Shown one piece after another: positions 52,978 to 55,900 of a stretch of DNA of 64,000 nt (positions are counted from its first letter, which is position 1; every line of letters starts with the position of its first letter). The position numbers are program-made. The DNA is taken from assembly GCF_048403405.1 (NCBI RefSeq), contig NZ_CP183129.1; one strand, written 5' to 3'. The stretch is from Escherichia coli (GTDB taxonomy: Bacteria; Pseudomonadota; Gammaproteobacteria; Enterobacterales; Enterobacteriaceae).

Positions 52978-55900
52978 TTATCGTTATGATCTACAAAAGC
53001 CACCAGCATAACAAATCCGTGGTCGGTGGCAAAAAAAGCAGATTTCGCTTATTAAAACTGCACATTGATTGAAGTTTGAATAAACGCGCGATTTTTTAAA
53101 AAAGTTTGTTGACCTCAGGTCATGATTTCCCTAAATTAGCGCCCGTTCCAGCAAGACAGGAACGACAATTTGGTGAGGTGTCCGAGTGGCTGAAGGAGCA
53201 CGCCTGGAAAGTGTGTATACGGCAACGTATCGGGGGTTCGAATCCCCCCCTCACCGCCATATTTAAAGAAGAGCTCGTACGAAAGTACGAGCTTTTTTTT
53301 CGTATATTGCATAGACCGGGGGGATGAGAAGCCCCAGGCGGAGGTCGACAACTAGCGACAGACTCATTCATCATCCTTGCGGTTGATAAGAATTTCTGCC
53401 TCTTTTACTACCACCTTATTACGCCCGGTCTCTTTCGCCTCGTAAAGTGCGTTATCAGCCAGTTGATAGATCTCCTTAGGGTTTAACTCATTTTTCTGCG
53501 TTACAACAGCGCCAATACTAATCGTCACTTTTTGTGGTATGGCGTATTCAGGATTATCACCAGTTAAACGCTCAACATTTTCCCGAATCCTTTCCGCTAA
53601 AGCTTTCGCACGTTCAGTATCGATGTCCGTCAGCAAGACGCCAAACTCTTCGCCGCCGACGCGCGCAAAAAGGTCATCTGGCCGTATGCTTTTCCCAATT
53701 ATACTCACCACTGTTTTTATCACCTGATCGCCAACCGGATGCCCCCAGGTGTCGTTGACTTTTTTGAAGTGGTCGATATCCATAATCATGACGCAATAAG
53801 GCGTTTTTTTGGCCGATGCTGATTGAACTGTCAGTTCATTAAAAAAATAATTTCTGTTAAATATATTGGTTAAGGAATCGCGATGTGCAATGTCCTTTGT
53901 TACTCGTAGCGCACTGAATATATGGCACATAAATATTACCATAACGGTTAACTTACTGACTACTTCAATAGTGCGACTAATATACCAAATGGACACGCTA
54001 TACCTGCTCATAAATAAAAGAGAGACATTGTACAGTACGGCACAAAAAGCAATCACCGTCACTCCATTCCAGATATCACAGCGTAAACCATTAAAGTATA
54101 GATTAACTGAAAGCAAGGTTAACCACATGAAAATCATTATGGTAACATATGATGTTTTCCAAACCACCTGATCATTTTCATTGGTTAACTCGGCAATGTG
54201 TAAATTGTAGCTCTCATAATGACTAGAAAGTATGTGAGCAACTATCGGCCCCCCAACAACAAAAAACAAACTTATGCACAAAGTCATTTTTTTGGAAAAT
54301 AAATTGCGCTGTTTTGTGTTTTCACTAACTTTATTCACCAATGCCAGAAATATTAATATGCACAAACTCATCTGACGAAACAAATAATAGATTGCAATGT
54401 CATTTTGAACAACACTGCTTGTCAAACGCCCCTCAATAATTTGCTGAATGATAATGACGGTTTTAACAAAGTAAATCAAACAACTCAGAAAAGCCAAACT
54501 AAGTATACAGTTTGAAAATTGCCTACGGTCATAAATGAAATACAACTGCATAAAAATAAATGCAACAGTATCGATAAAAAATAAAGCAATCATTACCATC
54601 AGATAGGTTGATCGTGGAACAACTTCCTCAACGCCTGGCTGATTAAACCAACTATTCACCAAAACCAAAGCAAGCCCAAACAATAAGCTCACTAATACAG
54701 TACTACTAATTCTCAAATAGTCTTTTTCCATAAAGCTACACCAATCTGTAGGTTGTAGATCCCTTTCTATTATTAATAGATATAAGAACTGTACTGTTGT
54801 CAATATGAAATTCCGCCCACAAACAATACCGATGATGATAGTTGCATACCGCAATTATTATTGCCTTAGTGCTTTATACATTCTTCGCGACAAGACAGGC
54901 TTGCAAATACATATAAATGGTTATAAGGAAATCCTTATAAAACATTAATTCATAGATATATTAGGAATAACAATTGAATCCGTGAGTACAGTAACGCTGC
55001 ACTTCATCAGGACTTTCGAAAAATCCGATATCATGCATCGGAATTTACTGATTTAATTATTTTAATCCTAATTTATTTTGAAAAAGGCATTGGGATTTAT
55101 GCCGTATTCCTGAAGTTCCTCATCATTGGAATGGATTTTCAGGCGAGAAAAGGATTTTATATGGATACTCTACTCATCATTTCTTCTTCTCATCATCAAC
55201 AATTCACGTCTCTCTTCCGCGTTTAATAACGGATTATGATGTGCAAAAAAAATATCTTTCGTTTCAGTTACCTGTAATTAGATACAGAGAGAGATTTTGG
55301 CAATACATGGAGTAATACAGGATGTATTCAAGTAGCAGAAAAAGGTGCCCGAAAACCAAATGGGCTTTGAAAATTCTTACTGCCGCATTTTTAGCAGCGA
55401 GTCCCGCGGCGAAGAGTGCTGCTAATAATGCCTATGATGCATTGATTATCGAAGCTCGCAAGGGAAATACTCAGCCAGCTTTGTTATGGTTTGCACAAAA
55501 ATCAGCACTCAGTAATAACCAAATTGCTGACTGGTTACAGATTGCCTTATGGGCCGGGCAAGATAAACAGGTTATTACCGTTTACAACCGCTACCGTCAT
55601 CAGCAATTACCAGCGCGTGGTTATGCAGCTGTCGCCGTCGCTTATCGTAACCTGCAACAATGGCAAAACTCGCTTACACTGTGGCAAAAGGCACTCTCTC
55701 TGGAGTCGCAAAATAAGGATTATCAACGGGGACAAATTTTAACCCTGGCAGATGCGGGTCACTATGATTCTGCGCTGGTTAAACTTAAGCAGCTTAACTC
55801 TGGAGCACCGGACAAAGCTAATTTACTCGCAGAAGCCTATATCTATAAACTGGCGGGGCGGCATGAGGATGAATTACGGGCGATGACAGGGTCATTACCT

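What the first reader, a model, noticed from the sequence alone, without database searches (positions are those of the whole stretch)
53260..53363. serX tRNA 3' flank is unoccupied: dgcT lies about 100 bp from the tRNA terminator
tRNA 3' ends are common integration sites. From memory of the K-12 map, K-12 carries an IS3 copy plus ymdE/ycdU between dgcT (ycdT) and serX, whereas here only the serX terminator and a short spacer separate the two. This locus therefore looks like an empty site, a strain-level difference from K-12.
Basis: partly seen in the sequence, partly recalled or inferred. Interest (0 to 1): 0.3.

Follow-up and report, generated by a model that had tools for sequence, protein, structure and literature searches.

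The report
Unoccupied serX tRNA integration site
In this E. coli strain the 104 bases between the serX tRNA gene and the dgcT gene hold only a terminator and a repeat fragment, so a well-known docking site for genomic islands is empty here; about one in five sequenced E. coli are the same, so this is an ordinary, already documented strain difference.

Summary
tRNA-Ser(GGA) serX ends at 53259 and the convergent dgcT stop codon starts at 53364. The 104 bp between them hold a strong bidirectional hairpin terminator (53265-53300) and about 60 nt of a truncated RtT-type repeat.

The site is an exact unoccupied attB. Removing the 61.6-kb serX island of UTI89 in silico, between its two 14-bp repeats (CCCCCTCACCGCCA), gives 216 nt identical to the window.

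The state is common. 1136 of 5426 complete E. coli genomes show the same adjacency, including the type strain, and about 300 more have something lying between serX and this same junction.

K-12's extra DNA is not a tRNA-integrated element. It is the IS3-truncated remnant of a ~33-kb O157 "OI-47"-like segment. That segment replaced 86 bp, including the last 13 codons of dgcT, so DgcT has a different C-terminal tail in K-12.

Diverged dgcT alleles, including plasmid-borne ones, keep the window-type tail and junction. The window arrangement is therefore most likely ancestral.

Verdict: real, explained, already known in kind, low interest.

The parts
53109..53137 (+). sigma-70-like promoter match upstream of serX (TTGACC-17-TAAATT)
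   Evidence: Consensus scan only. The position fits a serX promoter, but activity was not tested.
53172..53259 (+). serX, tRNA-Ser(GGA), intact
   Evidence: ARAGORN. Rfam tRNA 53.8 bits. Annotated as tRNA-Ser in the identical genome GN02461.
53246..53259 (+). 14-bp att core CCCCCTCACCGCCA (last 14 nt of serX); single copy, so an unoccupied attB
   Evidence: It is the direct repeat at both ends of the 61,569-bp UTI89 island, and removing that island gives 0 mismatches to window 53167-53382. The same 14 bp lie next to the integrase in Seattle 1946 and in the O157-like strain. It is published as the repeat flanking OI-43/48 and the SRL PAI (PMC3064760). The 19-nt tRNA 3' end that contains it occurs only once in the window, even with 3 mismatches allowed.
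53265..53300 (.). bidirectional intrinsic terminator shared by the convergent serX and dgcT genes (A-tract, 16-bp stem, GAAA loop, T8)
   Evidence: RNA fold of the spacer: -36.4 kcal/mol, z = -4.43, 0 of 200 shuffles fold as well. The terminator scan hit is on the - strand. The T8 tail on the + strand is read directly from the sequence.
53301..53361 (+). 5' fragment (~60 nt) of an RtT-type repeat unit, cut off in the loop of its CAACTGGC/GCCAGTTG hairpin
   Evidence: Aligns with each full 181-bp unit downstream of serX in K-12 up to about 53360. Two of the three K-12 units reach the Rfam RF00391 gathering score, 46.3 against 45. The window fragment gives no RtT hit at E<=1.
53364..54731 (-). 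dgcT (ycdT), MASE4-GGDEF diguanylate cyclase, 455 aa, with the window-type C-terminal tail ...GRNKVVVKEAEILINRKDDE
   Evidence: ORF and annotation. Pfam PF17158+PF00990 on homologues. Tail comparison.
53321..53406 (.). the 86 bp that the OI-47-like segment replaces in K-12-type genomes (41 bp of RtT fragment, 2 bp, the stop codon and the last 13 codons of dgcT)
   Evidence: The K-12-type right junction is at about 53320-equivalent in both K-12 and the O157-like strain. The left junction is at 53406/53407.

Best explanation
The interval is the native, unoccupied 3' flank of serX. It holds a bidirectional Rho-independent terminator, which ends serX transcription and probably also the convergent dgcT transcript, and then a truncated RtT-type repeat fused directly to the dgcT stop codon. 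The last 14 nt of serX are the attB core used by the tyrosine integrases of the serX islands (PAI-serX of UPEC, OI-48/SpLE1 of O157, SRL PAI of Shigella). In this strain that core is present once and no element is integrated. The serX-terminator-RtT-fragment-dgcT junction is old, most likely the ancestral arrangement of the pga-dgcT block. The K-12 arrangement came later. A ~33-kb OI-47-like segment (vmpA/pdeT, fimbriae, a two-partner secretion pair, fatty-acid/polyketide genes, a full-length malonyltransferase, ycdU) replaced 86 bp at this junction and gave DgcT a new 10-residue tail. In the K-12/B1-type lineages an IS3 then deleted 31.7 kb of that segment, leaving ymdE (a 5'-truncated malonyltransferase gene) and ycdU. 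Shown here: the anatomy, the counts, the exact reconstruction of the attB and the IS3 replacement. Inferred: the polarity, terminator function and integrase usage in this particular strain.
For: Anatomy.
Exact empty attB: UTI89 has two 14-bp cores 61,569 bp apart, and excision in silico gives 216 nt with 0 mismatches to the window. Seattle 1946 has the integrase, the core and then sequence identical to the window from 53246 onward.
Frequency: 1136 of 5426 genomes cover at least 80% of 53150-53550 in one piece, including ATCC 11775 at 100% identity. 1436 genomes carry the junction 53246-53550.
K-12 structure.
K-12 DNA as an OI-47 remnant: the O157-like locus has about 33 kb between dgcT and the RtT fragment. 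The flanks of K-12 IS3D map 31,740 bp apart on that locus. IS3D has no target-site duplication, TTT on one side and GTG on the other. CUWW06 keeps a full-length malonyltransferase gene.
Polarity: the window-type tail is kept, with co-divergence, in alleles of 89, 87, 86 and 76% identity. The same RtT-fragment/dgcT junction is found in L008, L009 and the plasmid-borne copies L011 and L013. In a neighbour-joining tree the alleles with the K-12-type tail form one clade nested inside alleles with the window-type tail.
Literature: serX islands and their sizes (PMC7545054); the 14-bp direct repeats and precise excision (PMC3064760); the K-12 gene order and strain variation next to ycdT (PMC5635171); vmpA inserted immediately downstream of ycdT in EDL933 (PMC4287979).
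Against: No chromosomal outgroup species was obtained. The single genome-contig scan returned only the E. coli representative, and the 76% allele comes from a metagenomic contig of unknown species, so the polarity rests on allele phylogeny and parsimony. Homologous recombination between E. coli lineages could move either state and blur the tree. A never-occupied site cannot be told apart from one restored by precise excision. Terminator activity and the 3' end of the dgcT transcript were not measured.
Confidence: 0.85

Rival explanations
1. The short spacer is a deletion scar. The ancestor had the K-12/O157-type content (OI-47, ymdE, ycdU, RtT array) and this lineage lost it.
For: The RtT unit in the window is truncated, whereas K-12 has complete units. 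A truncated repeat looks like a deletion end-point. IS-mediated deletions do occur at this locus.
Against: The window holds 45 bp (53362-53406; 86 bp when measured from the true K-12-type junction) that have no counterpart in K-12-type genomes, so a simple deletion cannot produce it. These bases encode a DgcT tail that has co-diverged in alleles of 76-89% identity, and the same junction occurs on plasmid-borne copies. K-12-type alleles are nested within window-type alleles.
Confidence: 0.1
2. The site was occupied recently and was restored by precise integrase-mediated excision of a serX island, rather than never having been occupied.
For: Excision between the 14-bp repeats regenerates an intact serX and has been observed in culture for OI-43/48 (PMC3064760). 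Closely related genomes (UTI89, Seattle 1946; flanks 99-100% identical) carry islands at exactly this point.
Against: Nothing in the sequence can separate the two histories, because precise excision leaves no scar. 1136 genomes share the empty state, against about 300 whose junction is separated from serX, so empty is the commoner condition among genomes with this junction.
Confidence: 0.25
3. The adjacency is an assembly artefact, produced by collapse of the RtT repeats or omission of an island.
For: The downstream region is repetitive in other strains: a 181-bp period with up to 3.4 copies.
Against: The same sequence occurs in 1136 complete genomes, and 13.8 kb around it are identical to GN02461. 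No sequence discontinuity is seen.
Confidence: 0.01

Closest known systems
Empty serX attB of the PAI-serX / OI-48 (SpLE1, tellurite-adherence island) / SRL-PAI group of integrative islands
   Same: Intact tRNA-Ser(GGA). The same 14-bp core at its 3' end that flanks those islands. The downstream flank is identical to the island-distal flank in UTI89 and Seattle 1946 (PMC3064760, PMC7545054).
   Different: No island, no integrase and no second repeat are present here. This is the target, not the element.
E. coli K-12 MG1655 dgcT-IS3D-ymdE-ycdU-RtT x3-serX interval
   Same: The flanking genes and orientation are the same (pgaABCD, dgcT, serX, ghrA, ycdXYZ, csg) at 96.8-97.6% identity.
   Different: K-12 has 3262 bp where the window has 45 bp by BLAST boundaries. 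K-12 has a different DgcT tail (RDVVNFCESP against KEAEILINRKDDE) and three complete RtT units where the window has one truncated unit.
O157:H7 O-island 47 (vmpA/pdeT, fimbrial and fatty-acid/polyketide genes) between ycdT and ycdU
   Same: It occupies the same interval, and its right end is the source of K-12's ymdE and ycdU (PMC4287979 for vmpA next to ycdT). The name OI-47 and its size of about 31.7 kb are from my own memory of Perna et al. 2001. The 31,740-bp figure was measured here.
   Different: It is completely absent from the window. tblastn with YcdU and YmdE finds nothing.
RtT RNA repeats of the tyrT operon (Rfam RF00391)
   Same: The window spacer carries the first ~60 nt of such a unit after the terminator. 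In K-12 the serX units reach the Rfam threshold, and each ends with 19 nt of the tRNA 3' end, as the tyrT repeats do.
   Different: The window has no complete unit (no hit). The serX units end in the serX 3' end, not the tyrT 3' end.

Membership tests
Unoccupied attB for serX-specific integrative islands | Intact target tRNA gene with the 14-bp core CCCCCTCACCGCCA at its 3' end | tested here: met
   The core is at 53246-53259.
Unoccupied attB for serX-specific integrative islands | Only one copy of the core, with no integrase or foreign genes between the tRNA and the conserved flank | tested here: met
   The 19-mer that contains the core has one match in 64 kb, with 3 mismatches allowed. The spacer is 104 bp and has no credible ORF.
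Unoccupied attB for serX-specific integrative islands | Removing a known island between its direct repeats reproduces the sequence | tested here: met
   UTI89: a 216-nt reconstruction has 0 mismatches to 53167-53382.
Unoccupied attB for serX-specific integrative islands | Integrase-catalysed recombination at this site | not testable with these tools
   Known for related strains from the literature only (PMC3064760).
Rho-independent terminator | GC-rich hairpin immediately followed by a U-run | tested here: met
   16-bp stem plus U8 on the + strand. The - strand hit has a CTTCTTTAAA tail.
Rho-independent terminator | Transcripts end at the U-run | not testable with these tools
   No transcript data.
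RtT RNA (RF00391) | Full-length match at or above the Rfam gathering score (45 bits) | tested here: not met
   No RtT hit in 52900-53600 at E<=1. Two K-12 serX units score 46.3 bits and a third scores 36.1. The window has only the 5' fragment of a unit.
K-12-type dgcT-serX interval | IS3, ymdE and ycdU between dgcT and serX, with the DgcT tail RDVVNFCESP | tested here: not met

The most novel reading that the evidence does not exclude
The RtT-type units downstream of serX each carry a copy of the 14-bp att core; K-12 has four copies, counting the one in the tRNA. Three unrelated neighbours abut a differently truncated unit: OI-47/ycdU at about 53320, a DUF2726 gene in pga-less strains at about 53344, and dgcT at about 53360. 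RtT arrays might therefore be footprints of, or substrates for, repeated integrase-driven or illegitimate module exchange at tRNA 3' ends. That would explain both the origin of RtT repeats and the hypervariability of this locus, and would mean that the pga-dgcT block itself arrived by such an event.
Probability: 0.15. Interest if true: 0.4.

Novelty: already known. Interest (0 to 1): 0.12.

Why it matters
It matters little beyond strain typing. The finding shows that this strain lacks a serX island, which in related strains carries S fimbriae, salmochelin and Ag43 or tellurite-resistance and urease genes. It also shows that the strain lacks the OI-47 segment and has the longer, probably ancestral, DgcT C-terminus. 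For annotation, two points are useful. K-12's ymdE and ycdU are remnants of a 33-kb segment. DgcT exists in two tail forms, which could matter to anyone comparing c-di-GMP control of PGA synthesis between K-12 and this strain type.

Tried and rejected
1. Outgroup search. A 29-nt stretch of dgcT that is invariant among three alleles was scanned against genome contigs.
2. Strain C6, whose dgcT is 80% identical, was examined as a possible outgroup. It is an ordinary E. coli with a rearranged locus: two phoH copies, and IS5 abutting dgcT. It says nothing about polarity.
3. P0034, a 63% homologue, sits next to a cadC-like gene with no tRNA nearby. This is a different context and gives no information about the tail.
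4. The idea that ymdE and ycdU come from the aryl-polyene/fatty-acid genes of the serX island was tested by tblastn against the last 50 kb of the Seattle 1946 island and against the window. There was no hit, so the idea was rejected. They come from the OI-47-type segment instead.
5. Rfam on the window spacer gave only weak sub-threshold hits (sX4, MicC, Thr_leader) that ride on the tRNA or the terminator. I read these as chance matches.
6. The ORFs overlapping the spacer (73, 84 and 71 aa) overlap the tRNA and are not annotated in the identical RefSeq genome. They were dismissed.

Full report
**What is there**

The window carries a single tRNA gene, tRNA-Ser(GGA), at 53172-53259 on the + strand. 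Its neighbours identify it as serX:
- ghrA, ycdX, ycdY, ycdZ and csgGFED lie on one side.
- dgcT (53364-54731, - strand, 455 aa, MASE4+GGDEF) and pgaABCD lie on the other.

This reading comes from the RefSeq annotation of strain GN02461. That genome is identical to the window over all 13,801 bases compared.

The spacer has two parts:
- **Terminator, 53265-53300.** An A-tract, a 16-bp stem, a GAAA loop and T8. The spacer (53260-53366) folds at -36.4 kcal/mol, z = -4.4, and none of 200 shuffles folds as well. It has U-rich tails on both strands, so it can serve both convergent genes.
- **Repeat fragment, 53301 to about 53360.** This is the 5' part of an RtT-type repeat unit. It is cut off in the loop of an internal hairpin and is followed at once by the dgcT stop codon. 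Rfam finds no complete RtT element here.

**K-12 comparison**

It also has three 181-bp RtT-type units plus an 80-nt partial fourth unit downstream of serX.
- Two of the units reach the Rfam gathering score for RF00391.
- Each unit begins with 19 nt of the serX 3' end.

By BLAST, homology between the window and K-12 breaks at 53361/53362 and resumes at 53407. That leaves 45 bp in the window against 3262 bp in K-12.

The true right-hand junction of the K-12-type DNA is at about 53320-equivalent, in the last, partial RtT unit. It is seen in both K-12 and an O157-like strain. The K-12-type DNA therefore replaces 86 bp of the window-type sequence.

Those 86 bp include the last 13 codons of dgcT, so the DgcT tails differ:
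- Window: ...GRNKVVVKEAEILINRKDDE
- K-12: ...GRNKVVVRDVVNFCESP

**Is it an empty integration site? Yes.**

- In UTI89, dgcT (window-type) is followed by the RtT fragment, the terminator, the 14-bp sequence CCCCCTCACCGCCA and then a tyrosine integrase gene.
- A second copy of the same 14 bp lies 61,569 bp further on and forms the 3' end of the intact serX.
- Joining the two flanks at the repeat gives 216 nt with no mismatch to window 53167-53382.
- Seattle 1946 has the same integrase-proximal junction, and so does an O157-like strain.
- The 14-bp repeat is the one published for OI-43/OI-48 and the SRL PAI, and precise excision that restores serX has been shown (PMC3064760).
- serX islands of 62-113 kb are catalogued for CFT073, UTI89, RS218, IHE3034 and UM146 (PMC7545054).
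- The window has no second copy of the tRNA 3' end.

**How common is each state?**

Counts are out of 5426 complete E. coli genomes.

| State | Genomes |
|---|---|
| Cover at least 80% of 53150-53550 in one piece (serX directly attached to the junction); includes type strain ATCC 11775 at 100% identity | 1136 (21%) |
| Carry the junction 53246-53550 | 1436 |
| Junction present but separated from serX, in the sampled cases by an island | about 300 (1436 - 1136) |
| At least 80% match to 53100-54900 | 4177 |
| K-12-type tail (4177 - 1436) | about 2740 |
| IS3 at exactly the K-12 position | 2299 |
| Lack such a match (5426 - 4177) | about 1250 |

The last class lacks or has a disrupted dgcT. One example, strain C4, has serX, an RtT fragment, a DUF2726 gene and phoH, with no pga or dgcT. 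Published work also notes pga/ycdT-less strains and variable DNA next to ycdT (PMC5635171).

**What K-12's extra DNA is**

An O157-like genome has about 33 kb between dgcT (K-12-type tail) and the partial RtT unit. Its genes are:
- an EAL gene (vmpA/pdeT; PMC4287979);
- a fimbrial operon;
- a hemagglutinin/ShlB pair;
- a fatty-acid/polyketide-like cluster;
- a LolA-like gene;
- a full-length ACP S-malonyltransferase gene;
- ycdU.

No integrase is annotated in it. The two flanks of K-12 IS3D map 31,740 bp apart on this sequence. IS3D has no target-site duplication. ymdE is the 3' part of the malonyltransferase gene, and strain CUWW06 shows an intermediate state. K-12's ymdE and ycdU are therefore what is left after an IS3-associated deletion of an OI-47-type segment. 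They are not the product of integration at the tRNA.

**Polarity**

Three observations point the same way:
- The window-type tail is present, with matching divergence, in DgcT alleles that are 89, 87, 86 and 76% identical to the window protein.
- The junction of the RtT fragment with the dgcT stop codon is conserved in three settings: the 89% allele next to serX, the 76% allele next to an island attR plus one full RtT unit, and plasmid-borne pga-dgcT copies.
- In a neighbour-joining tree of the DgcT core, rooted with a 47% homologue, alleles with the K-12-type tail form one clade nested among window-type alleles.

One insertion with an 86-bp target loss explains the K-12 type. The reverse direction would need a deletion plus the gain of a homologous tail. 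I put about 0.7 on this polarity, because no chromosomal outgroup species could be retrieved.

**Verdict**

The locus is an exact empty attB. The state is common, the hotspot is well documented, and K-12's extra DNA has a different origin from the one implied. This is an ordinary, already known kind of strain polymorphism.

Noticed in passing
L001 4246-5503 (K-12 IS3D) against L017 16148-47889: K-12 IS3D has no 3-bp target duplication (TTT on one side, GTG on the other) and stands in place of 31,740 bp of an O157 OI-47-like segment. The same IS3 junction is present in 2299 of 5426 complete genomes, including B1-type E24377A, so the deletion is old and widespread.
   Followed up: yes
L011, L012, L013 (6001-7464 and flanks): A pgaABC(D)-dgcT module (DgcT 86% identical, with the window-type tail) sits on plasmid-like contigs carrying TraG/TraI/TraT/Rep3 genes. 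One source labels the protein Salmonella enterica. L011 and L013 still carry the T-run and the RtT fragment after dgcT, which suggests the module was captured from a chromosome with the window-type junction.
   Followed up: partly
L019 4638-5840, L014 46824-48026, L017 13253-14455: In the serX islands examined, the integrase gene lies at the end far from the intact tRNA. It sits next to the displaced 14-bp repeat and reads away from it. This is the opposite of the usual tRNA-int arrangement as I remember it.
   Followed up: no
L018 7073-7940 (strain C4): In pga/dgcT-less strains a DUF2726 gene abuts the serX RtT fragment, truncated at about 53344-equivalent, and is followed by phoH. With dgcT (about 53360) and OI-47/ycdU (about 53320), this makes three different neighbours, each meeting a differently truncated RtT unit.
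   Followed up: partly
L015 5019-5336; rows: RefSeq annotates the serX-linked repeats as 'RtT sRNA, processed from tyrT transcript'.
   Followed up: partly
L003 1573-4451 (strain AR_0061): IS3 lies directly between the serX downstream region and a K-12-type dgcT, with ymdE, ycdU and most RtT units gone. This looks like a further IS3-adjacent deletion that mimics a short spacer.
   Followed up: partly
L006 (strain C6) 8720-34177: A diverged pga-dgcT allele (about 78-80% identical) has IS5 abutting a third kind of DgcT tail (GFVE*). It lies between two inverted phoH copies, next to an integrase/DUF3987/AlpA/McrBC island. This is a rearranged version of the locus.
   Followed up: partly
L009 2444-2902 (pig-gut metagenome contig): The 76% dgcT allele has one complete RtT unit plus the truncated one between an island attR and dgcT. 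The number of full units therefore varies (0, 1 or 3) even among window-type junctions, consistent with unequal crossing-over.
   Followed up: partly
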